A DNA stretch of 64,000 nt, from the IMG/VR virus record IMGVR_UViG_2718218136_000001; one strand, given 5' to 3'. The notes beneath the pieces were generated by a model, which saw nothing but the letters and a program-made list of their open reading frames with translations, had not been told where the DNA came from and ran no database searches. The DNA comes from a virus (lineage: Duplodnaviria; Heunggongvirae; Uroviricota; Caudoviricetes). Positions 11,201 to 64,000 of the stretch are shown here, piece after piece. Position numbers and translations under genes: made by a program. The first letter of the stretch is position 1. Every line of letters begins with the position of its first letter.

Positions 11201-11384
11201 CCAGCATCGCCGACTGAGATTTTACGGATATAAATTCATAGCCCTGATTTCGCAGGTCCTGAATCAGTTCACGTTCCAGGTCCGATTCGCTCTGGTAGCT
11301 GTCGCCTGTTGGCTCAGCTTTGATGTACTTATCAAGAACGATAAAGTTATTGGATTCAGCAATGGTGTGTGTCTGATGAGTCAT
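8268..11384 (-). CDS. hsdR: Type I restriction enzyme R subunit (type IC, EcoR124-like)
   Basis: 1038 aa; Walker A TGSGKT, DECH box (FDECHRSQ); own promoter region 11385-11505. Confidence 0.9.
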
Positions 11385-11505
11385 AGCGCATCCTTTGTGC
11401 CGTCTGGCAAGGGCCGGAAGGGGGGTAATGGTGACTTCCGGCGCGTAAAAAATAGTCTATATACTGACCGGGTGTTAAGGTGGTCCGATCGGTAGCAATG
11501 ATCAA

Positions 11506-12737
<1,232 letters not shown>

Positions 12738-12741
<4 letters not shown>

Positions 12742-14300
12742 TTTTGCACCTCGCAGCCTTCAATTTCAGCCACAATCGCATCAATATCTTTACGCAACTG
12801 GTCGATTTTGCTGACCGTGGTTTTCAGCTCAGCATTCAGCTCAGCAATATCGATAATTTCGCGGTTATCTTTCGCTTCCACATAGCTGCTCACCGACAGG
12901 TTATAGTCATTAGCAACAACGGTCTCAAACGCGACAGATTTCGCCAGATGAGCAACATCTTCCTTGCTGGCAAATACCTGCATAATCTGTTCGATATGGG
13001 TATCGGTCAGGATATTGTTGTTAGTCTCTTTTTTGAACAGTTCGCTGGCGTCAATAAACTGAACGTTGGTATCCGTTTTATGTTTGGACAGAACCAGAAT
13101 GTTTACTGCAATGGTGGTGCCAAAGAACAGGTTCGGTGCCAGTGAAATTACGGTTTCGACATAGTTATTGTCAATCAGATACTGACGGATTTTCTGCTCC
13201 GCGCCGCCACGGTAAAAAATACCCGGGAAGCAAACAATCGCAGCACGACCTTTGGCAGAAAGATAGTTCAGCGCATGTAGTACAAAGGCGAAGTCAGCTT
13301 TTGATTTGGGGGCCAGAACGCCAGCCGGGGCAAAACGCTCATCGTTAATCAGTGTCGGGTCATCGCTGCCAATCCATTTCACCGAATACGGCGGGTTAGA
13401 AACGATGGCATCAAACGGTTTTTCATCTCTGAAGTGCGGCTCAGTCAGTGTATTACCCAGCCTGATATCAAACTTGTCGTAGTTGATGTTGTGCAAAAAC
13501 ATGTTCATACGCGCCAGATTATAGGTCGTATGGTTGATTTCCTGACCGAAAAAGCCTTCTTCGATGATATGGTTATCAAACTGCTTTTTAGCCTGCAACA
13601 ACAGTGAGCCGGAACCCGCTGCCGGGTCGTAGATTTTGTTAACGTTGGTCTGCCCGTGCATAGCCAGTTGTGCAATCAGCCTGGAGACGTGCTGCGGTGT
13701 AAAGAACTCACCGCCTGACTTACCAGCATTCGCCGCATAGTTAGAAATCAGGAACTCATAGGCATCGCCGAACAGGTCAATCTGATGTTCGTTAAAGTCG
13801 CCAAGCTTTAAGCCTTCAACCCCTTTCAGGACCGCAGCCAGGCGGGCATTTTTATCCTTAACGGTGTTACCCAGGCGGTTACTGGTGGTATCGAAATCAG
13901 CAAACAGACCTTTGATGTCTGCTTCTGAAGGATAACCGTAAGCAGAACTTTCGATAGCAACGAAGATGCTGTTTAAATCTGCATTCAGTCTGTCATTGGT
14001 ATTTGCTTTCGCCGCTACGTTGCAGAAAAGCTGACTGGGGTAGATGAAGTAGCCTTTAGTTTTGATGGCATCGTCTTTAATATCATCAGTAATTACGCTG
14101 TCATCCAGTTTCGCATAACAGATACTGTCATCACCGGCTTCAATATAGCTGGAAAAATTTTCGCTGATAAAACGGTAGAAAAGTGCGCCCAGAACGTATT
14201 GCTTAAAATCCCATCCATCGACCGAACCCCTGACATCGTTAGCAATTTGCCAGATTTGACGATGAAGCTCTGCACGTTGTTGAATACTTGTCATTTTCAT
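12738..14300 (-). CDS. hsdM: Type I R-M N6-adenine DNA methyltransferase subunit
   Basis: 520 aa; NPPY motif (VSNPPYS) and AdoMet-binding [10 protein letters not shown]. Confidence 0.9.
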
Positions 14301-14476
14301 CCACTTATTTCAGGCTTATGTAATTGGATGTGATTCTACAGCAACTTGGATGCTTTAGCAGTTCGGATATTAGGCTACGAATGACCTGCCTAGAGGTTTG
14401 TTAAGCCGCAAAGTGCTGGTGCTTTATGTCTGTGAAGTTTATAATTGCGTACACATAACGAGTACACGAGGTATTT

Positions 14477-19996: not shown

Positions 19997-20218
19997 ATGG
20001 CTACTGTCCCTACCCCAACTCATCCTGAATTCATCTGGCGCTTCTATTCCTGCCAGAAACGTCACTATCACTTCGTTATTGCACCGACAGAAGATGAGGC
20101 CCGTTCTCAGCTTCCTGACGCTCCCTGCATTTTCTCTGCCCGCTTTTCCACTGATTCGCGCAACTCTCTCAGTTACTGGTGCCTCCCTGTTAACGCTTCT
20201 GCTCAGGAGGGACTATGA
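19997..20218 (+). CDS. icd: Icd-like small protein (interference with cell division), translationally coupled to ant
   Basis: 73 aa; ATGA overlap with the ant start; paralog at 58961..59182. Confidence 0.6.
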   Translation: MATVPTPTHPEFIWRFYSCQKRHYHFVIAPTEDEARSQLPDAPCIFSARFSTDSRNSLSYWCLPVNASAQEGL

Positions 20219-21330
20219 GAACGTCATTAGTCACCCGTGAAGAAATGATTGAGGCAATTGAACAGCACACATCCTGTATCAGTACCAGGGATATACCGGG
20301 CGTTATTGCCAACTACTTCATGATCACCAAACAACTTTACCGGAGAAAGGACAAGAACGCTGTTCACCGCATTCTGTTGTCTGATATCCGCGAATACCTG
20401 CTCGAACAGGGGCATCTGAATTACGCAACCGTCGCAGCCGAAACACGCAAGGAGGCACACAGAATGAAAGCAACTAACGTTAAATCAGAAAAAACTCATG
20501 CACCTTCAGTTCAGGAATCGGAGCTGGTGGTTGTTCAGAATCAGTCTGATGAAATTCCCGTTCTGGAATGGCTGGGAGTGCGTGTAGTGACAACTAAGAT
20601 CCTTGCTAAGGGGTATGGGACAGATGCGGATAACATCAAGAAGAACTTTTCCCGTAATGCTGAACGTTTTTGTGAAGGCAAGCATTTCTATAAAGTTATT
20701 GGAGATGATTTGAACAATTTGCGGGTGACTTTAAGTAACTCACAAAATCCTATCTCTCCTAAAGCCCGCTCACTCATCCTCTGGACGGAACGCGGCGCAG
20801 CCCGCCACGCTAAAATGATCGAAACCGATCAGGCATGGGCATTCTTTGAAAAACTGGAAGACAGCTACTTCCGACAAAAAGAACAGCAACCGATCGCAAT
20901 CCCCCAGACGCTTCCAGAAGCTCTGCGCCTTGCTGCCGAACTGGCTGAACAAAAGCAACTTCTGGAACAGAAAGCCCATCAGCTAAATCAGCAGCTGGTG
21001 GCCGCAGCCCCCAAAGTCGATTTTGCCGACCGGGTATCAGTGGCTAAGGGGATCCTGATTGGGAATTTTGCAAAGGTCGTTGGACTTAAACAAAATGCGC
21101 TGTTTGCCTGGTTACGGGAGAACGGCATTCTGATAGCGTCCGGCGGCCGTAAAAATGTACCGTTCCAGCAGTACATAAACGCCGGATATTTCACAGTGAA
21201 AGAAGTGGTGCTGGATGATGAAGAGGGCTACCAGATACGGCTGACGCCCCAATTAACGGGGAAAGGCCAACAGTGGTTGACGCGTAAACTGCTCGATGCT
21301 GGCTTGTTAAAACCGGTGGCGGCTGAATAA
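20215..21330 (+). CDS. ant: Antirepressor Ant (N-terminal domain plus C-terminal antirepressor domain)
   Basis: 371 aa; C-terminal QQYINAGYFTVKEV...GKGQQWL block shared with the kilA-like gene and with the disrupted copy at 59179-60211. Confidence 0.7.
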   Translation: MRTSLVTREEMIEAIEQHTSCISTRDIPGVIANYFMITKQLYRRKDKNAVHRILLSDIREYLLEQGHLNYATVAAETRKEAHRMKATNVKSEKTHAPSVQESELVVVQNQSDEIPVLEWLGVRVVTTKILAKGYGTDADNIKKNFSRNAERFCEGKHFYKVIGDDLNNLRVTLSNSQNPISPKARSLILWTERGAARHAKMIETDQAWAFFEKLEDSYFRQKEQQPIAIPQTLPEALRLAAELAEQKQLLEQKAHQLNQQLVAAAPKVDFADRVSVAKGILIGNFAKVVGLKQNALFAWLRENGILIASGGRKNVPFQQYINAGYFTVKEVVLDDEEGYQIRLTPQLTGKGQQWLTRKLLDAGLLKPVAAE

Positions 21331-22906: not shown

Positions 22907-22940
22907 TCGGGCCTAATAACTTCGTATAGCATACATTATA
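22907..22940. other. lox recombination site, loxP variant (ATAACTTCGTATA-GCATACAT-TATACGAAGTAAA)
   Basis: 13-8-13 architecture; left arm and spacer identical to loxP (reverse orientation), right arm differs at two positions. Confidence 0.85.
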
Positions 22941-23138
22941 CGAAGTAAACTTAAGGGTTATTGAACATGAACAATTTACCTGTAAATCCATACAGTTCAA
23001 TACCTTATCAGGTCAAATAGTGATCACTTGATCATTTGATCAAGATTGCGCTACGTAAAATCTGTGAAAAGTTGGCAGTGTTAGTGCTCCAGATTTCGCG
23101 TAGCGCACTTAGCACCACCAATCAATCAGAGGTGAAAA

Positions 23139-23367: not shown

Positions 23368-24399
23368 ATGTCCAATTTACTGACCGTACACCAAAATTTG
23401 CCTGCATTACCGGTCGATGCAACGAGTGATGATGTTCGCAAGAACCTGATGGACATGTTCAGGGATCGCCAGGCGTTTTCTGAGCATACATGGAAAATGC
23501 TTCTGTCCGTTTGCCGGTCGTGGGCGGCATGGTGCAAGTTGAATAACCGGAAGTGGTTTCCCGCAGAACCTGAAGATGTTCGCGATTATCTTCTATATCT
23601 TCAGGCGCGCGGTCTGGCAGTAAAAACTATCCAGCAACATTTGGGCCAGCTAAACATGCTTCATCGTCGGTCCGGGCTGCCACGACCAAGTGACAGCAAT
23701 GCTGTTTCACTGGTTATGCGGCGGATCCGAAAAGAAAACGTTGATGCCGGTGAACGTGCAAAACAGGCTCTAGCGTTCGAACGCACTGATTTCGACCAGG
23801 TTCGTTCACTCATGGAAAATAGCGATCGCTGCCAGGATATACGTAATCTGGCATTTCTGGGGATTGCTTATAACACCCTGTTACGTATAGCCGAAATTGC
23901 CAGGATCAGGGTTAAAGATATCTCACGTACTGACGGTGGGAGAATGTTAATCCATATTGGCAGAACGAAAACGCTGGTTAGCACCGCAGGTGTAGAGAAG
24001 GCACTTAGCCTGGGGGTAACTAAACTGGTCGAGCGATGGATTTCCGTCTCTGGTGTAGCTGATGATCCGAATAACTACCTGTTTTGCCGGGTCAGAAAAA
24101 ATGGTGTTGCCGCGCCATCTGCCACCAGCCAGCTATCAACTCGCGCCCTGGAAGGGATTTTTGAAGCAACTCATCGATTGATTTACGGCGCTAAGGATGA
24201 CTCTGGTCAGAGATACCTGGCCTGGTCTGGACACAGTGCCCGTGTCGGAGCCGCGCGAGATATGGCCCGCGCTGGAGTTTCAATACCGGAGATCATGCAA
24301 GCTGGTGGCTGGACCAATGTAAATATTGTCATGAACTATATCCGTAACCTGGATAGTGAAACAGGGGCAATGGTGCGCCTGCTGGAAGATGGCGATTAG
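23368..24399 (+). CDS. cre: Cre tyrosine recombinase
   Basis: 343 aa, MSNLLTVHQNLPALPVDATSD...; essentially the Cre sequence. Confidence 0.98.
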   Translation: MSNLLTVHQNLPALPVDATSDDVRKNLMDMFRDRQAFSEHTWKMLLSVCRSWAAWCKLNNRKWFPAEPEDVRDYLLYLQARGLAVKTIQQHLGQLNMLHRRSGLPRPSDSNAVSLVMRRIRKENVDAGERAKQALAFERTDFDQVRSLMENSDRCQDIRNLAFLGIAYNTLLRIAEIARIRVKDISRTDGGRMLIHIGRTKTLVSTAGVEKALSLGVTKLVERWISVSGVADDPNNYLFCRVRKNGVAAPSATSQLSTRALEGIFEATHRLIYGAKDDSGQRYLAWSGHSARVGAARDMARAGVSIPEIMQAGGWTNVNIVMNYIRNLDSETGAMVRLLEDGD

Positions 24400-24416
24400 C
24401 CATTAACGCTTAAATG

Positions 24417-25452: not shown

Positions 25453-25757
25453 CTGGTCCCTGTTCATGCCGATGGTGTGGTTGGAGGCAAGAAAGAATTC
25501 ACCTTGCTGAACAAGTCAGAGATGGAGTTACTGGCTGACGCCTATGAAATGGCAAACATCATGCACTAATAAATATATTATTTTTAATGATAAATGATTG
25601 ACAACTGACAAGTGACTTCAGTCAGAATCATCACACGCCCGGTACGGATGGATCCCTTTTCAAATATTCCATGGACGGCACAGTCTGAGTACCGGGCGCT
25701 ACCTTCAGTTGTATTGCTAAGCCGCCGCTGGTGGCTTTTCTTTTTTGTAGGGGCGCT

Positions 25758-26399: not shown

Positions 26400-26455
26400 A
26401 CGTCAATGCATTAGGGTATACTTCTCCATAGAACTATAAGTAAATGGAGTAAGTA

Positions 26456-27556
26456 ATGAGCGAATATGTTGAGTTAGCATACGCTGCCGCTACAAGCAGG
26501 CTTTGTCTATTTACCGGGACTGGCTTTTCAAAGGCAGTCTCGAACGGCGAAGCACCAACGTGGAAAGAACTATTAAAAAAAGTTTGCAGCAAAGTTCACA
26601 ACGCCAAACAGTTGGAAGACACGTTATTCCCTGATGATAAACCACCAGCACTGAGTCTTGAAGAAGCCGCACAAATACTATCTTTGAAGCTCAACATTGA
26701 AGGCAAGTCGATTTATGATGAAATTGTTGACATCATATCTCCAATACAACTTGGCGAAGATATATCAAATATAAAGGATTTTTTTCAAAAAAGAACATTT
26801 CGTGTCATTACAACGAATTATGACAAGTTAGCTGAATACTTAACTGGAGATGAGGAGGTTCAGTCTATTACCCCAGGCTTACCTATTCCTAAATATCCCT
26901 CCAAAGTTAAAATATATCATGTCCATGGTTCTATTGACTCTCCACAAAACATGATTGTTACATCAGAAGACTATTTTAGGTTTATAAACTCCGACACTTA
27001 TTTCTCTCGAAAACTTAGCACGATGCTGCATGAAAATACAGTTGCGATATTAGGCTATTCTTTAAGCGACACGAACCTAAAAGCAATTATAAATGATTAC
27101 AAAATATTCTCGAAAGGTAACACTCTGTGCTCTAATATATTTTTCATCTCTCGCAGTGAAGTAAGTCAAGATATGAAGGATTATTATTTTTATTGTTTTG
27201 GAATACGAGTAATTGACAACACCGAAATAGACTCTTTCTTTAAGAGATTGAGCATTAACATAATGTTAATTGAAGGCGTCATAGCAAGAGCCAGACAAAG
27301 TATAAAAAGAGTTTTATCAGGCACTTTTAACTATAAGGATGAATACATTAGATTAGAAGATTCATTCTATCAAATAACTTCCTCGATTATATCTGAGGGT
27401 TTCGACTGGAATGACGGACAAGTAGTTGATTTTTTTCAAGAGAATAATAAAACAAAAAAGAGACTTAACAAGAGAGAGTGGTGCTTGGGAGCAATACGAG
27501 CAGCTTGCAAAATGGCTTATATATTTCGGCAGCCTTTTAGAAATTGGTGGAACTAA
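26456..27556 (+). CDS. SIR2-family protein (putative NAD+-depleting defence effector), possibly continuing to 27746 after a +1 frameshift
   Basis: FTGTGFS, TTNYD and YHVHGS motifs typical of defence-associated SIR2 domains; AT-rich; overlapping ORF 27426..27746 in another frame looks like the true C-terminus. Confidence 0.65.
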   Translation: MSEYVELAYAAATSRLCLFTGTGFSKAVSNGEAPTWKELLKKVCSKVHNAKQLEDTLFPDDKPPALSLEEAAQILSLKLNIEGKSIYDEIVDIISPIQLGEDISNIKDFFQKRTFRVITTNYDKLAEYLTGDEEVQSITPGLPIPKYPSKVKIYHVHGSIDSPQNMIVTSEDYFRFINSDTYFSRKLSTMLHENTVAILGYSLSDTNLKAIINDYKIFSKGNTLCSNIFFISRSEVSQDMKDYYFYCFGIRVIDNTEIDSFFKRLSINIMLIEGVIARARQSIKRVLSGTFNYKDEYIRLEDSFYQITSSIISEGFDWNDGQVVDFFQENNKTKKRLNKREWCLGAIRAACKMAYIFRQPFRNWWN

Positions 27557-27814
27557 GTATGAAAATGAATATTTAGACGCCGTTGAATACTCAATGTCCA
27601 ACATGAGCAAAGAAATGAGATTAGGTTATTCGTGGCATGCTTATAGAGCTTGGGAAACAAGATGGTCCACAATCATTGCTTCAAATCGATTAATAATAAA
27701 AAACGCATCGAAGAAATTGGCGTACTGGAGGATGCTAATTCTATAGTAAAAGATATAGTGTAATTGAAGAGCGGCAAAAATTTAACGGGCAGCTACAACT
27801 GCCCGATATATAAA

Positions 27815-28063
27815 TCAATCCGCATTCAGGAGCAATGCGTTATCTATGATGATCTGCTCCCATTCTTCGAATGCCCGGTCGCGGACGCCCTGGGGAACGC
27901 TGTTAGTTTTGAAATCGACGACCGTACGCCATTTCCCGTCCGGACGGTACATGCGCAGAGCTTTACTTCCCCCTTCCCTGCGCACCTCAACGTTATGCTT
28001 ATCAGCAAACTCTTGTAATGCTCGTAGCGTCCCATGCTTTACTGTGTAGTATCGCTTTTTCAA
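27815..28063 (-). CDS. lxc: Lxc/Bof-like C1 co-repressor
   Basis: 82-aa basic protein upstream of darB; size and position as P1 lxc. Confidence 0.55.
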   Translation of the reverse strand: MKKRYYTVKHGTLRALQEFADKHNVEVRREGGSKALRMYRPDGKWRTVVDFKTNSVPQGVRDRAFEEWEQIIIDNALLLNAD

Positions 28064-35367: not shown

Positions 35368-38098
<2,731 letters not shown>

Positions 38099-38100
38099 CA

Positions 38101-38130
38101 CCCTCCACGCCCTGACGGGCGTGGAGGATG
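38101..38130. terminator. 11-bp GC-rich stem-loop between convergent pro and ddrA-like genes
   Basis: cctccacgccc tgac gggcgtggagg; no flanking U-tract. Confidence 0.45.
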
Positions 38131-38496
38131 TCACGCTGCCTCTTTAATGTTGGCGGCTATCCATGCCGCCGTGTGCTGTTTAACCTGGTCCAGGTCGATG
38201 TATGTGCCAACATATTGACTCAAATCCTGCAAGGTACCGATAAATGCATCGGTGCTCTGATCGACGAATTTATCAGCCAGGAAATCAGCAACCAGTTTTG
38301 GCACACCATCATGTTCCGAAGGTTGTTTTTCCTCGCCACTACCGCCGCCGGACGCGCCGTACCCCATCTGTTGCATGATCTGGTCAATTTCATCGCTGAT
38401 ATCCAGCAACTCCATGCCACTCGCGGTAGCAGCTTTGGACATCAGAGAATCCAACTTGTCGCTGAGGTCCATTAACTCAATAGCTGATAGTGTCAT
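38131..38496 (-). CDS. Small acidic protein at the ddrA position
   Basis: 121 aa, immediately downstream of darA. Confidence 0.5.
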   Translation of the reverse strand: MTLSAIELMDLSDKLDSLMSKAATASGMELLDISDEIDQIMQQMGYGASGGGSGEEKQPSEHDGVPKLVADFLADKFVDQSTDAFIGTLQDLSQYVGTYIDLDQVKQHTAAWIAANIKEAA

Positions 38497-58960: not shown

Positions 58961-59182
58961 ATGGTTAATGCCAATCCTTGCGCACGCCCAGAATTCATCT
59001 GGCGTTTCTATTCCTGTAAAAAACACCACTATCACTTCGTTATCGCAGCAACTGAAGACGAAGCACGCTCTCAATTGCCTGATGGCCCCTGCATTTTTAC
59101 TGCCCGTTTTTCAACTAACTCGCGCAATTCACTTAGTTACTGGAGCCTCCCCTTCTCTGCCGACGTTCAGGGGGGTTTATGA
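58961..59182 (+). CDS. Icd-like protein, second copy
   Basis: 73 aa, about 70 percent identical to the 19997..20218 product. Confidence 0.55.
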   Translation: MVNANPCARPEFIWRFYSCKKHHYHFVIAATEDEARSQLPDGPCIFTARFSTNSRNSLSYWSLPFSADVQGGL

Positions 59183-60211
59183 AAACACCTCTCGTCACCC
59201 GTAATGAAATAGCCGAAGCGATCGCCCTGCATACTGCCTGTATGCCGACACGGGAGATCCCCGGCGCAATTGCTAACTATTTCATGATAACCAGACGTTT
59301 TTATACCCGAACAGATAAGGCTGTGATCAACAGGCTACTGATAGCCGAGATCAGGGATTATTTGATTGAACAAGGACGTCTACGTTACGCAACAGTGGCA
59401 GCAGAAATGAGAAAGGAGGCACATAGAATGACCGGTAATAATTTAAATGTTGAAAAACCAGCACCTGTTGCTTCAGCTACGCCAGCACCAGCCCTGAATG
59501 TCATCCCCAACACCGGAGACACAATCGACAGCCAAACATTGTTGAAGATGGTCAATGAGGCACGGAAATTATGTAGCGAAAAACCAGTTCGCAACAATGA
59601 TTTCATTGCCAGAGTTAAGGATGAGCTTGAAGGAGAAACCTACGAAATTTTCGTAGGTCAAAAAAACGGCGCAGTAATAGATATTATAACCATGACCTAC
59701 AAACAAGCCCTGCGAGTTGCCGCGCGCGAGTCAAAAGCGGTCCGCCGTTCGCTGATCGACAAACTGGAAGAATTGCAGCAGGCAAACTCCCCTACCCCAT
59801 CGATCCCCAAACATTACCAGAAGCTCTACGCCTGGCTGCCGAGTTGGCAGAACAGAAAATGCAGTTGGAACAACAGCTGGTGGCCGCAGCCCCTAAAGTC
59901 GATTTTGCCGACCGGGTATCAGCGGCTAATGGAATCCTGATCGGGGACTTGCAAAGGTCGTTGGACTTAAGCAAAACGCCCTTTTCTCATGGTTGCGCCA
60001 GAACGGCATTCTCATGGCTTTTGGTGCGCGCAAAAACGTACCGCGCCAGCAGTACATTAACGCCGGGTATTTCACGGTGAAAGAAGTGGTGCTGGATGAT
60101 GAAAATGGCTACCAGATACGGCTGACGCCCCAATTAACGGGTAAAGGCCAGCAGTGGTTAACTAGCAAGCTACTTGATGCTGGTTTGTTAAAACCAGTAG
60201 CAATAGGTTAA
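59179..60211 (+). pseudogene. Antirepressor ant, second copy, interrupted by two frameshifts (about 59800 and 59955)
   Basis: Homology to the intact Ant continues across three frames (ORFs 59179..59940, 59844..60080, 59993..60211). Confidence 0.6.
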
Positions 60212-60288
60212 CAAAAGAAAAAACCTGCCAGCTAACTGGCAGGTTTCTGAGCAGATCGACCAACCCGATCTGGATCGAGTTAGAAAAA

Positions 60289-60305
60289 TTTGCTCTAATA
60301 AATTT
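60289..60305 (+). promoter_or_regulatory. C1 operator, near-perfect consensus (tttgctctaataaattt), upstream of the kilA-like gene
   Basis: 16/17 match. Confidence 0.65.
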
Positions 60306-60373
60306 CGTTTCTAAGTGCAAAGAATCACCATTTCGAGCTGGTGATTGAAGGTTGATGCAAATTTGGAGAAAAA

Positions 60374-61172
60374 ATGCAACAAACATTCAATGCGGATATG
60401 AATATATCAAACCTTCATCAAAATGTCGATCCTTCAACCACCCTGCCTGTTATTTGTGGTGTTGAAATTACGACCGACCGCGCTGGCCGTTATAACCTTA
60501 ATGCTCTACACAGAGCGAGCGGACTCGGTGCCCATAAAGCGCCAGCTCAATGGCTAAGAACGCTGTCAGCCAAACAGCTCATCGAAGAGCTTGAAAAAGA
60601 AACTATGCAGAATTGCATAGTTTCGTTCGAAGGCCGTGGCGGCGGCACTTTTGCCCATGAATGCTCGCAGTGGAGTACGCTGGTTGGATTCTCCCGCGTT
60701 TCGGCTGAAGGTAAACCAGACATTTATCGACTATCGAGCTGGAAGATTACAACCTGCTATTCCGAAGAGCCTCCCAGAAGCTCTCCGTTTGGCTGCTGAC
60801 CTGGCAGAGCAAAAGCAACGGCTGGAGCAAAAAATGCTGATGGATGCACCTAAAGTCGAATTCGCCGAACGCGTTGCTACCGCCAGCGGGGTTCTAATCG
60901 GCAACTATGCCAAAGTGCTCGGCCTGGGCCAAAACTATCTCTTCACCTGGTTGCGTGATAACGGAATTCTGATCGCAACCGGTGAACGCAGAAACGTCCC
61001 CAAACAAGAATACATATCCCGTGGGTATTTCACCCTTAAAGAAACCGTGATCGATACAAGCAATGGAAGCAGGATTTCTTTCACGACTCGTATAACCGGC
61101 AAAGGTCAGCAGTGGCTGATGAAGCGATTGCTTGATGCTGGTGTGCTGGTACCTGTCGCGGCAACGCGCTAA
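60374..61172 (+). pseudogene. KilA-N domain antirepressor-like gene split by a frameshift near 60660
   Basis: N-terminal KilA-N/Bro-N-like ORF 60374..60799 and C-terminal ORF 60636..61172 carrying the shared Ant C-terminal domain; combined length about 266 codons. Confidence 0.55.
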
Positions 61173-61201
61173 CAGACGTAGTAAGAACCACCAGCATTGT
61201 A

Positions 61202-61636
61202 ATGCTGGCTAAAGTCACTTTCCTGAGCTGTATAACGATGAGCGATTTTACTTTTTCTGGCTATGAATTGGCCTGCTTTGTAACACACTCCGGTCTATCC
61301 CGTAGCGCCGGGCATATCCTGTCGCAATGTGCAAATCTCGCGGCAACAACCAGTGAATACTTCATTCACAAGCCTCACCGCCTGATCGCGGCAGAAACTG
61401 GTTATAGCCAATCAACCGTCGTTCGTGCATTCCGTGAAGCTGTAAACAAAGGAATTCTGTCTGTAGAGATTGTTATCGGCGATCACCGTGAACGTCGCGC
61501 TAACCTGTACCGGTTTACACCATCCTTTTTGGCCTTCGCACAACAAGCCAAAAATGCGCTGATTGAAAGCAAATTAAAGATCTCTTCAGCGGCAACCAAG
61601 GTTAAGCTGTTCTCGCTAAGACATTGGCTTATTTAA
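61202..61636 (+). CDS. HTH-containing protein at the repL position (possible short or truncated RepL-like lytic replication initiator)
   Basis: 144 aa; winged-helix-like AETGYSQSTVVRAFREAVNKGIL; synteny after kilA. Confidence 0.3.
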   Translation: MLAKVTFLSCITMSDFTFSGYELACFVTHSGLSRSAGHILSQCANLAATTSEYFIHKPHRLIAAETGYSQSTVVRAFREAVNKGILSVEIVIGDHRERRANLYRFTPSFLAFAQQAKNALIESKLKISSAATKVKLFSLRHWLI

Positions 61637-62040
61637 TTTTTATCCACACCCCCATGTCAAAATGATACCCCCTCCCCCTGTCAGGATGACGTGGCAATAA
61701 AGAATAAGAAGTCACAAGTTAAAAAACAAAAAGATCAGTTTCCGGCGGTGCCGGAACGACCAGACTCAAAAAATGACTTCATGGATCGCTGAGGCAAAAG
61801 CAAAGGCTGACAATCTGCGGTTATCCAAAAAACGCGCTCAAAAACATGAGTTCAAGCAGAAAGTAGAGGCGGCAGCGCGGAAATATGCTTACCTGAAGGA
61901 CAAGGCGTCTCCTGATATTGCGGGATATCAAACTTCGATAATCTGCCGCATTGCATGACGGTAAACGAAGCTCTTAATGCGGTTTAGCCAAAAAAAGATA
62001 ACGAACAATGGGGTATACCGGCAGATTCAGAGGGTGATAG

Positions 62041-62057
62041 ATTGCTCTAATCTGGAG
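62041..62057 (+). promoter_or_regulatory. C1-operator-like site (attgctctaatctggag)
   Basis: 11/17 with a perfect left half. Confidence 0.35.
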
Positions 62058-62500
62058 TCACTGGCGTTTTCAGTTTGAGTCGGAGATGCAATTGATTTTT
62101 TACAGTTAGCGATCGCTTTGCAGGATATGTTTGTATTGGCTTCTGTGTATACATGATAGCCGAAAAATGCTTGTCGATATCGACCGCAAAGAACAAGCAG
62201 GAGATTCTAGTATGGATTTTCTTTGGCGCGGTCTGGCCATTAGGATCATGTTTGCTGCAACATTTCTTCTGATGTGGATATTCACCCTTCCAGGTGATTC
62301 TATAGAAAAAAAGCCAGACATTGATACAATCGTTGCGGTGCTTGAGGCTATCTGCTTCAGGCATTACCCGAAAAGCAGATAGAAGAAGCCCCAGTAACAT
62401 TACGCGTCCTGCAAGACGCTTAACATTAATCTGAGCATATCTATGCTTAGCATACGTAGATTAGCCTCTTACCGACCAAAAGGTCAAGGAGAAGCAGGCT

Positions 62501-62646
62501 ATGAAGCAGCAAAAAGCGATGTAATCGCTCTGATCGTCATCTGTTTAACCGTCATTGTGACGGCACTGGTAACGAGAAAGACCTCTGCGAGTACGAATCC
62601 GAACGGCCAACGGAGTCACTGTCTTCACAGCCTACCGAATCTGAAA
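62501..62646 (+). pseudogene. Degenerate hok/gef-family membrane toxin gene (at least three frameshifts)
   Basis: MKQQKAM (frame 2), VIALIVICLTVIVTALVTRK (frame 1), DLCE (frame 0) and VRIRTANGVTVFTAY (frame 2) together resemble HokC/Gef MKQHKAMIVALIVICITAVVAALVTRKDLCEVHIRTGQTEVAVFTAYESE. Confidence 0.5.
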
Positions 62647-63906
62647 GTAAGAACCTGCGGGAGAGATCCCTGCACTCTTCGTGTGTCAGGTATCTCAATG
62701 CACCCTTTCCTCTCCAAATAAAAAAGCTCCCGAAGGAGCTTTAAAATACAAGGGATGACTCTTAAGCCCACTCATCCAGTTGTAGACGATACGAAGTGAC
62801 GGGCGCACAGCGGCAGTCACATCTTCGTACTAAAGTCGATTGCATCACTGTAGATTTTGCAGTCCAACATTTCAATTTGTAGCAGCTTTTGTCACAGCGT
62901 TACCCGGAAGATTTGATTCAGGGTCGCAGCCATCGTGATATCAACATAGTCCTTCGCCGCAATGCGATCTTAATGAACTGAAGAATATCGCCTTCGATAG
63001 TCTCCACCACTGGACCTGGATTTCCCCAGAGTTTCGAATTGGACCGTGCTGGTTGAACTTCACACCATTCGGACCATAGTCCTCCACATCCTCGCGGTCA
63101 TTCAGGAATTTGCGACGTGCGAACCAGTACGCTGATATCTTCATGCTGCAAAAGTGAGCTGGAATTCAGAAGATACCAGTCGTTCGCCTTTGGCCGCGTT
63201 GCAGTATAGCGGCCTTAATAAATTTACGGTTTCCTTAGTGTTATTGTCCCCATATAAAATCTTTTACTGAACGCCCGACATATCGGAGCTGTTATATCGA
63301 AGAACCGGTCAACTGGAGTTGCGGTGTTTTCAGGAAATGCCCATTGGTCCCTGGCGCATCGAGATCGAAACTTATGTCTGGATAGCGACATCAATGATGT
63401 TGATCCGCGACCAATGTTTAGCGTCACACGCTCCGGGATTCGACCACCAATACTGGCATCTTTAAGTTCCGGGCTAATCATCGCTGACAATGCGGCGATA
63501 GCTCCTGAAACCTCCGTGAATGGTCAAACAAAGCGATGAAAGTTACTGGCAGCGTGAAAGTCGGCGGTGTTCCCCCCTCCCAAACCATTAAGCTGTTCAA
63601 CGGGCCACCGACGTTGTTTCAGTACCAACCTGCGCAAAACCACTGAAAGCACCAGCAACAGACCCCATGGACATACCGGTAAACGGCGCTTCCCAATTCT
63701 GGGCCATGTTCATTGCTGCCCCCTGGCTGATATCCGGTAACCTGGTACTGAGAGTTCGTTAAAGTAACTTTCAGAAATGGCGATACACCGTCAGCCTGGC
63801 TGTAAACCCCATAAGGAATAGGTGCCATTCAAGTTAAAGGCCGGAGTTCTCCGGCCTCCTCCTTTAGCCAAGGCGCTTACGGCGCAGTTTCATTGACTTT
63901 TTGCGG

Positions 63907-64000
63907 AATGTAAATATTGTCATGAACTATATCCGTAACCTGGATAGTGAAACAGGGGCAATGGTGCGCCTGCTGGAAGATGGCGATTAGCCATTAACGC
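63907..64000 (+). repeat. Duplicate of the cre 3' end and downstream flank (identical to 24316-24409), cut by the window edge
   Basis: 94 bp identical, including the codons for NVNIVMNYIRNLDSETGAMVRLLEDGD-stop. Confidence 0.85.

What the first reader, a model, noticed from the sequence alone, without database searches (positions are those of the whole stretch)
63907..64000. Second copy of the cre 3' end at the right edge of the window
94 bp identical to 24316-24409 (last 27 codons of cre plus downstream flank) reappear 39.5 kb away, with identity starting abruptly at aatgtaaat. This marks a recombination junction, and the preceding 2.3 kb (61640-63906) has no recognisable P1 backbone genes. 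It may be the scar of a cargo insertion or a rearrangement involving the cre region.
Basis: seen in the sequence. Interest (0 to 1): 0.5.

Follow-up and report, generated by a model that had tools for sequence, protein, structure and literature searches.

The report
Probable assembly misjoin in P1-like plasmid
The last 94 bases of the window do repeat the end of the cre gene, but they follow ordinary P1 backbone genes riddled with sequencing-type one-base deletions, so this is most likely an assembly misjoin, or at most a private rearrangement, and not a cargo-insertion scar.

Summary
The repeat is real. Window 63907-64000 matches 24316-24409 at 94 of 94 bases (cre codons 317-343, the stop codon and 10 nt), and there are only these two copies.

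The window is a P1-like phage-plasmid, colinear with P1 from coordinate 76293 through lox to 54634. At 63906|63907 the last 14 codons of tail gene 21 (minus strand) abut P1 coordinate 1384 inside cre, with no shared base at the join.

This join is absent from about 143,000 phage, plasmid and E. coli records. An exact 34-mer spanning it is absent from three large contig collections.

That stretch is repL, hok/mok, bplB, pmgG and the end of gene 21, about 97% identical to hundreds of P1-like plasmids. Its reading frames are broken by 72 deletion events between 59.65 and 63.73 kb. These are mostly homopolymer contractions, enriched at Dam/Dcm sites, with few substitutions. The other ~58 kb have almost no indels.

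Best reading (0.6): a non-colinear join made during assembly or finishing, in a region lacking high-quality data. Rivals are a real 39,591-bp tandem duplication (0.2) or a coexisting rearranged molecule (0.12). The 270 bases around the join are error-free, which stops me going higher. There is no cargo and no site-specific recombination signature. Interest is low.

The parts
63907..64000 (+). Second copy of the cre 3' end (Cre residues 317-343, stop codon, 10 nt downstream), cut off by the window edge. It includes the position of P1's predicted c8 promoter (P1 1394-1425).
   Evidence: 94/94 identity to 24316-24409 and to P1 1384-1477. tblastn cre 317-343, 100%. P1 annotation.
24316..24409 (+). 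First copy, inside the intact cre gene and its downstream flank.
23368..24399 (+). Intact cre gene (343 codons, 99.7% identical to P1 Cre), in its normal context: lox, cra, cre, c8, ref, mat.
   Evidence: tblastn single full-length match. Colinearity with P1 1-3468. c8 and ref intact.
22916..22949 (+). The only lox site in the window. It differs from canonical loxP at 2 positions in the right arm.
   Evidence: Pattern search with up to 3 mismatches found 1 match, against 0 expected.
63864..63906 (-). Remnant of tail/baseplate gene 21: its last 13 codons, stop codon and one further base. The upstream part of the gene is replaced by antisense cre sequence that contains stop codons.
   Evidence: Alignment to P1 ends at 54634, and gene 21 is 54592-55407 on the minus strand. 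Minus-strand translation ...I*FMTIFTF|RKKSMKLRRKRLG* compared with the P1 gp21 C-terminus.
63906..63907 (.). The junction: P1 54634 joined to P1 1384, in direct orientation, blunt, with zero microhomology.
   Evidence: Window ...tttttgcgg|aatgtaaat. P1 continues ...tttttgcgg|gcaagt, and cre reads ...ggctggacc|aatgtaaat.
59650..63730 (.). Low-quality stretch with 72 deletion events relative to a close relative, densest in 61.6-63.7 kb (61 events in 2.1 kb). There are almost no insertions and few substitutions. It breaks ant1, kilA, repL, bplB and pmgG into several frames.
63731..63906 (.). Error-free 176 nt (start of pmgG, intergenic region, end of gene 21) immediately left of the junction.
   Evidence: The last deletion event is at 63730. 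Window 63780-63906 is 100% identical to many plasmids.
60374..61169 (+). kilA, split over three reading frames.
   Evidence: tblastn.
61202..62035 (+). repL (lytic replicon, contains oriL), frameshifted. The longest open frame is 144 aa instead of 281.
62326..62706 (+). hok/mok toxin-antitoxin cassette, in the position where P1 has rlfA/rlfB. Hundreds of P1-like plasmids have the same arrangement.
62773..63251 (-). bplB, frameshifted.
   Evidence: tblastn matches in two frames.
63295..63828 (-). pmgG, frameshifted.
   Evidence: tblastn matches in three frames.

Best explanation
The window comes from a P1-like phage-plasmid (IncY type) whose deposited sequence contains a non-colinear join. The 3' tip of tail gene 21 runs straight into codon 317 of cre, 39,591 bases downstream of the intact cre.

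The join most likely arose when the sequence was assembled or finished. Candidate causes are a misjoin, a path switch, or an unmarked contig boundary, in a region the assembler could only cover with unpolished long-read consensus.

Shown:
- The join exists and is unique among the public records searched.
- It has no homology or recombination-site signature.
- It truncates an essential tail gene.
- It follows the only error-dense stretch of the window.

Inferred:
- That the join is technical rather than present in the plasmid population.
- The exact technical cause. It cannot be determined without the reads or the sequence beyond position 64000.
For: 1. Uniqueness. A 221-nt probe across the join matched 740 plasmid, 23 phage and 745 E. 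coli records. It always matched as two separate pieces ending exactly at the join, and no record covered 80% or more of it. An exact 34-mer across the join has 0 matches in the viral, genome and metagenome contig collections.

2. Error contrast. Against P1 there are essentially no indels in window 1-58000, then 12, 4, 9, 10 and 27 missing bases in the last five 1-kb bins. Against pEcoUTI1e there are 72 deletion events between 58.8 and 63.73 kb, nearly all between 59.65 and 63.73 kb, with 3 inserted bases in all and about 10 substitutions in 61.5-63.9 kb.

3. Error type. 49 of the 60 one-base deletions lie in runs of 2 or more identical bases, against 48% of bases in the background. 12 events lie at GATC/CCWGG sites, against 5 expected (p=0.004). 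This is the pattern of nanopore-type consensus error, not of evolution.

4. Consequence. ant1, kilA, repL, bplB and pmgG are each split over two or three frames, while cre, tub and pmgC are intact.

5. Junction anatomy. There is no microhomology at the join. There is no second lox-like site. No foreign DNA lies on either side.

6. Precedent. Non-contiguous misassembly and duplicated sequence are documented failure modes of long-read plasmid assembly (PMC6966772, read).
Against: - The 176 nt before the join and the 94 nt after it are error-free. At the local rate of about 2.9 events per 100 nt, about 8 events would be expected in those 270 nt (Poisson probability about 4e-4, computed). So the join does not sit in the worst-quality sequence, as it would if one raw chimeric read had extended a contig end. 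Either it was polished, or it lies in well-supported sequence.
- A de Bruijn graph cannot join two loci that share no sequence unless reads span the join.
- The same plasmid carries another private structural change that looks biological: a 7-kb deletion across IS hairpin ends. Real rearrangement in this lineage is therefore plausible.
- The source record and its reads could not be found, so the technical origin is inferred, not shown.
Confidence: 0.6

Rival explanations
1. A real tandem duplication. The 39,591-bp segment 24316-63906 (cre codon 317 through the end of gene 21) is present twice head to tail in one plasmid of roughly 125 kb. It would have been made by illegitimate recombination between sister copies, or by deletion within a dimer. 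The window ends 94 nt into the second copy. All genes would still have one intact copy, so the plasmid would be viable.
For: The pattern 'end of segment followed by start of segment' is the defining signature of a tandem duplication. The junction flanks are high quality. The lineage shows another private rearrangement.
Against: There is no microhomology at the join. A two-copy segment gives no reason for errors to be confined to its last 4 kb while 24.3-59.6 kb is clean. The join is not seen in any of about 750 related E. coli records. A 125-kb genome would exceed the P1 headful (own knowledge of P1 packaging). Colinear continuation beyond 64000 cannot be checked.
Confidence: 0.2
2. The junction is real but belongs to another molecule in the same culture. 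This could be a 39.6-kb circle excised from the plasmid, which would carry the lytic replicon repL/oriL but not c1 or repA. It could also be a second P1-derived element. The assembler switched paths within shared sequence, producing a lasso-shaped contig.
For: The junction flanks are high quality while the preceding shared region is unpolished, as happens where reads map ambiguously. P1-like fragments also occur on chromosomes (24 chromosomal places). Decay of P1-like elements into other element types is documented (PMC10879196).
Against: There is no direct evidence for a second element. A circle lacking the plasmid replicon and partition genes would be repressed by C1 from the resident prophage (own knowledge of P1 biology). 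The junction 34-mer is absent from all contig collections.
Confidence: 0.12
3. One reading: the scar of a cargo insertion next to a duplicated cre fragment, with 61640-63906 being the foreign cargo.
For: None beyond the absence of long ORFs in 61640-63906.
Against: That stretch is about 97% identical, end to end, to the repL-hok-bplB-pmgG-21 backbone of hundreds of P1-like plasmids. Its ORFs are missing because of about 60 frameshifting deletions. No IS ends, target-site duplication or non-P1 DNA flank the join.
Confidence: 0.02
4. An ordinary circularisation (start-end overlap) artefact, or a window that wraps around a circular record.
For: Start-end overlap is common in long-read plasmid contigs (PMC6966772).
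Against: Overlap or wrap-around requires the sequence to be periodic on both sides of the repeat. Here 63906 differs from 24315, and nothing else in 1-24315 recurs 39,591 nt later.
Confidence: 0.03
5. The product of site-specific recombination: Cre acting at a pseudo-lox site, or Cin at a quasi-cix site.
For: cre, lox and the cin-type invertible segment are all present in the window.
Against: The breakpoints are inside the cre coding sequence and inside gene 21, not at lox. No second lox-like site exists within 3 mismatches. The two parental sites share no base at the crossover, whereas Cre and Cin need matching spacer or crossover bases (own knowledge of these recombinases). Cin inverts, but this join is in direct orientation.
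Confidence: 0.02

Closest known systems
Misassembly (non-contiguous sequence within one contig) in long-read or hybrid assemblies of bacterial plasmids (Wick & Holt benchmark, PMC6966772, categories S5C and S5F)
   Same: A unique non-colinear join with no homology, next to a stretch carrying homopolymer and Dam/Dcm-site deletion errors typical of unpolished nanopore consensus. Duplicated sequence appears within one contig.
   Different: It is not the common start-end overlap, because the sequence is not periodic. The 270 nt around the join are clean, which a raw chimeric read would not give.
Tandem segmental duplication junction in a plasmid, made by illegitimate recombination
   Same: The end of a segment is joined directly to its own start, in direct orientation. 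Both junction flanks are otherwise normal sequence.
   Different: No microhomology at the join. The second copy is visible for only 94 nt. No depth or size data are available.
Bacteriophage P1 (NC_005856) and P1-like IncY phage-plasmids
   Same: The whole window is colinear with P1 from 76293 through lox/cre to 54634 at 92-99% identity. It carries the usual variable cassettes (type I R-M, hok/mok, tail-fibre invertible segment).
   Different: Gene 21 is truncated and followed by a cre fragment. lyz to ddrB is deleted. Several genes are frameshifted.
Defective P1-derived plasmids (Pfeifer & Rocha 2024, PMC10879196)
   Same: Loss of phage functions from a P1-like backbone. Here the lysis genes and ssb are missing from their usual place.
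   Different: Those elements are recognised by gene loss and gain seen across lineages. The cre/gene-21 join here is private to one record and sits beside sequencing errors.

Membership tests
P1-like phage-plasmid backbone (Punavirus / IncY) | Colinear gene order and high nucleotide identity with P1, including lox-cre, the immunity regions, the kilA-repL lytic replicon and the tail and baseplate operons. | tested here: met
   Blocks at 92-99% identity covering P1 76293-94800, 1-3468, 9752-20029, 27546-46628, 48142-51585 and 53412-54634. Hundreds of IncY plasmids match.
P1-like phage-plasmid backbone (Punavirus / IncY) | Plasmid replicon and partition genes (repA, oriR, parAB). | not testable with these tools
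   These lie at P1 59-63 kb, which a normal arrangement would place beyond window position 64000. There is no tblastn hit for repA in the window.
Tandem duplication | A junction joining the end of a segment to the start of the same segment, in direct orientation. | tested here: met
   63906|63907 joins P1 54634 to P1 1384. The first copy starts at 24316.
Tandem duplication | The second copy continues colinearly for the whole unit, with doubled read depth. | not testable with these tools
   The window ends 94 nt into the copy. The source record was not retrievable.
Start-end overlap / circularisation artefact or window wrap-around | Identity extends on both sides of the repeat up to a sequence end, so the sequence is periodic with the replicon length. 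| tested here: not met
   The left extension of identity is 0 nt. No other repeat has the 39,591-nt spacing.
Long-read / hybrid assembly misjoin | A junction found in no independent sequence of the same element family. | tested here: met
   0 of 740 plasmid, 23 phage and 745 E. coli records cover the junction probe. 0 exact matches in three contig collections.
Long-read / hybrid assembly misjoin | Local sequence quality typical of unpolished long-read consensus near the junction. | tested here: inconclusive
   There are 72 deletion events in 59.65-63.73 kb with homopolymer and Dam/Dcm bias. However, the last 176 nt before the junction and the 94 nt after it are clean.
Long-read / hybrid assembly misjoin | Few or no reads support the junction. 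| not testable with these tools
   No read data are available.
Cre-lox recombination product | The junction lies within a lox or pseudo-lox site, with a shared spacer. | tested here: not met
   There is a single lox at 22916-22949 and none near 63906 or 24316 within 3 mismatches. Zero shared bases at the crossover.
IS / transposon or cargo insertion | Foreign DNA bounded by element ends and a target-site duplication. | tested here: not met
   Both flanks are P1 backbone sequence. No repeat other than the 94-mer is present.

The most novel reading that the evidence does not exclude
The join is real. This P1-like phage-plasmid either carries a 39.6-kb tandem duplication running from within cre to within gene 21, or sheds a 39.6-kb circle that retains the lytic replicon but lacks c1 and repA. 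In either case the join was formed by homology-free illegitimate recombination. Together with the IS-hairpin deletion of the lysis genes, it would document an actively rearranging, defective phage-plasmid.
Probability: 0.3. Interest if true: 0.25.

Novelty: not a real feature. Interest (0 to 1): 0.08.

Why it matters
It matters mainly as quality control. The apparent 'gene-free 2.3 kb plus duplicated cre end' is ordinary P1 backbone damaged by sequencing errors, next to a suspect join. It should not be annotated as cargo, as pseudogenes, or as a recombination hotspot.

If the join were real, it would be one private structural variant of a very common plasmid family. That would be of modest interest for how phage-plasmids decay, and it would not reveal a new mechanism.

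Tried and rejected
- **Finding the source record or the sequence beyond 64000.** A junction probe was run against phages, plasmids and E. coli genomes. An exact 34-mer was searched in the viral, genome and metagenome contigs. Exact-product look-ups were made for three frameshift-specific ORFs. All were negative, so the continuation is unknown.
- **Window wrap-around or start-end overlap.** Rejected, because nothing else is periodic at 39,591 nt.
- **Cre/pseudo-lox or Cin origin.** Rejected: only one lox-like site exists, the join is in direct orientation, and no crossover bases are shared.
- **Restriction-ligation origin (engineered construct).** By eye I found no recognisable restriction site at ...GCGG|AATG... 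or at the parental ...GGACC|AATG.... This is inspection, not a systematic scan.
- **Cargo or IS insertion.** Rejected, because both flanks are backbone.
- **Natural pseudogenisation of 59.6-63.7 kb.** Rejected, because there are 72 deletions, almost no insertions and few substitutions, with homopolymer and methylation-motif bias.
- **A near-identical sister plasmid.** The closest found, CP099239.1, is only 96-99.3% identical block by block and mosaic, so it could not serve as a same-strain control.

Full report
**1. The observation**

Window 63907-64000 is identical at 94 of 94 positions to 24316-24409. A whole-window repeat search finds these two copies and no others, 39,591 nt apart (family D4). 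Identity stops exactly at the left edge, because 63906 differs from 24315. On the right it is cut by the window end.

The segment encodes Cre residues 317-343, the stop codon and 10 nt of downstream flank (tblastn). The first copy lies inside an intact cre gene (23368-24399, 99.7% identical to P1 Cre) in its normal context of lox, cra, cre, c8 and ref. The core observation is therefore correct and far beyond chance.

**2. What surrounds it**

The window is a P1-like phage-plasmid. It is colinear with P1 NC_005856 from coordinate 76293 through the lox origin (window 22933 = P1 coordinate 1) to coordinate 54634. The usual variable cassettes are exchanged (annotation).

The alignment to P1, and to every related plasmid, ends exactly at 63906 = P1 54634. 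That position is 43 nt into the 3' end of gene 21 (baseplate/tail tube, minus strand, P1 54592-55407). Only the last 13 codons and stop of gene 21 remain (RKKSMKLRRKRLG*). Upstream of them, the minus strand reads antisense cre with stop codons.

On the plus strand the cre fragment has an in-frame stop 13 codons upstream and no start codon before the junction, so no fusion protein is made.

The join is blunt. P1 continues ...tttttgcgg|gcaagt and cre reads ...ggctggacc|aatgta, so no base is shared on either side.

**3. The '2.3 kb without P1 genes'**

This claim is wrong. Window 61000-63906 matches P1-like phages at 96.8-96.9% and plasmids at about 97% over its full length; 375 plasmids cover at least 80% of the probe. 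The annotated features under the match are kilA, repL, a small hypothetical gene, hokD, bplB, pmgG and gene 21.

The mechanical ORF list nevertheless shows only short fragments there. Comparison with relatives explains why:
- Against P1 there are essentially no indels in window 1-58000. The last five 1-kb bins then miss 12, 4, 9, 10 and 27 bases.
- Against pEcoUTI1e there are 72 deletion events, nearly all between 59.65 and 63.73 kb: 60 of one base, 11 of two bases and one of nine. 61 of them fall in 61.5-63.73 kb. There are only 3 inserted bases and about 10 substitutions in 61.5-63.9 kb.
- 49 of the 60 single-base deletions hit runs of two or more identical bases, against 48% of bases in the background.
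- 12 events lie at GATC or CCWGG motifs, against 5 expected (p=0.004).
- ant1, kilA, repL, bplB and pmgG are each split across two or three frames. cre, tub and pmgC are single full-length matches.

This is the signature of unpolished nanopore-type consensus, not of evolution. Outside this zone I found one suspicious homopolymer contraction in about 58 kb (G5 to G4 in mat at 25750).

**4. Is the join found anywhere else?**

No. A 221-nt probe centred on the join hits 740 plasmids, 23 phage records and 745 E. coli records. It always hits as two separate places that end at the join, and no record covers 80% or more. An exact 34-mer across the join is absent from the IMG/VR viral contigs, the GTDB genome contigs and the JGI metagenome contigs.

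Look-ups of three ORF products specific to the frameshifted region found no contig. The source record, and therefore the sequence beyond 64000, could not be obtained.

**5. Mechanistic readings**

*a. Site-specific recombination is excluded.* There is only one lox-like site, at 22916-22949. The breakpoints lie inside coding sequences. The join is direct rather than inverted, and no crossover bases are shared.

*b. Insertion of cargo or an IS is excluded.* Both flanks are backbone.

*c. Circularisation overlap or window wrap-around is excluded.* The sequence is not periodic.

*d. Three readings remain.* These are an assembly or finishing misjoin, a real tandem duplication of the 39,591-bp unit 24316-63906, and a junction belonging to a coexisting rearranged molecule into which the assembly path switched.

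For the artefact:
- The join is unique.
- It has no microhomology.
- It truncates an essential tail gene.
- It follows the only error-dense stretch in the window. That stretch shows the assembler had no high-quality support just there.
- Misassembly and duplicated sequence are documented failure modes of long-read plasmid assembly (PMC6966772).

Against the artefact:
- The 176 nt before the join and the 94 nt after it are error-free. At the local rate, about 8 events would be expected in those 270 nt (probability about 4e-4). The join is therefore embedded in polished or well-covered sequence, not in a raw chimeric read.
- The plasmid carries a second private structural change that looks biological (see section 6).

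I put the artefact at 0.6, a tandem duplication at 0.2 and a coexisting molecule at 0.12. All other readings together come to less than 0.1.

**6. Things seen in passing**

- At 38095-38134 a 40-nt hairpin joins the end of pro (P1 20029) directly to the end of ddrA (P1 27546). As a result lydE, lydD, lyz, ssb, isaA, isaB, hxr and ddrB are absent.
- In Salmonella plasmid pZ1323SSL0064-3 that same segment is bracketed by two inverted copies of a 1.3-kb transposase element. Their outer ends carry the two halves of this hairpin. This suggests a deletion across the IS-end hairpins.
- None of 489 matching plasmids has this junction. The flanks here are clean. If the missing genes are not elsewhere in the unseen part of the genome, this element is a defective phage-plasmid. 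Such decay is described for P1-like elements (PMC10879196).
- Other notes: a type I R-M cargo, a second icd/ant/kilA-like module, hok/mok in place of rlfAB, a lox variant, and a mat frameshift.

**7. Comparison with known things, and verdict**

The element is an ordinary member of the P1-like IncY phage-plasmids. The finding itself most resembles an assembly misjoin. It formally also has the junction signature of a tandem duplication, but the defining second feature (colinear continuation and doubled depth) cannot be tested here.

There is no new mechanism, gene or element. Interest is low. The practical value is to prevent 61.6-63.9 kb from being read as cargo or pseudogenes, and to flag the record for re-polishing and junction validation.

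Noticed in passing
window 38095-38134 (context 37800-38400): A 40-nt hairpin (TTGACACCCTCCACGCCCTGACGGGCGTGGAGGATGTCAC) joins the end of pro directly to the end of ddrA. About 7 kb present in P1 (lydE, lydD, lyz, ssb, isaA, IS1, isaB, hxr, ddrB) is missing and gives no tblastn hit anywhere in the window. In Salmonella plasmid pZ1323SSL0064-3 that segment is flanked by two inverted 1.3-kb transposase elements whose outer ends carry the halves of this hairpin. None of 489 matching plasmids has the junction. It looks like a real IS-hairpin-mediated deletion that would make the prophage lysis-defective.
   Followed up: partly
window 59650-63730: This is the only low-quality stretch of the window. 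It has 72 deletion events with homopolymer and Dam/Dcm-motif bias, which frameshift ant1, kilA, repL, bplB and pmgG. The record needs re-polishing, and any pseudogene calls here would be spurious.
   Followed up: yes
window 25750: A G5-to-G4 contraction, relative to both P1 and CP099239.1, frameshifts mat (maturation control). It is either a residual homopolymer error or a real mutation.
   Followed up: partly
window 22916-22949: The single lox site differs from canonical loxP at two positions at the outer end of the right arm (...TATACGAAGTAAA instead of ...TATACGAAGTTAT).
   Followed up: no
window 8193-14400: A type I restriction-modification cargo (hsdM, hsdS, hsdR) lies between pap and phd/doc, where P1 has pmgT through humD. 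It is 99.9% identical to several pig-farm E. coli IncY plasmids. It contains a 300-nt direct repeat, 99% identical, at 11630 and 12239, probably within hsdS.
   Followed up: partly
window 20018-21324: A second, diverged icd/ant/kilA-like module lies between pacB and c1. It is 54-80% identical at protein level, and 81-87% at DNA level in patches, to the module at 58961-61169. Related plasmids such as CP099239.1 have it too.
   Followed up: no
window 62052-62719: A hok/mok type I toxin-antitoxin cassette replaces P1 rlfA/rlfB downstream of repL, as in hundreds of P1-like plasmids. It is about 85% identical to the hok loci of Rac-type and lambdoid prophages.
   Followed up: no
window 26400-27816: The EcoPI res/mod type III R-M genes of P1 (P1 3469-9751) are replaced by about 1.4 kb. 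The close relative CP099239.1 annotates a DUF2971 protein between mat and lxc.
   Followed up: no
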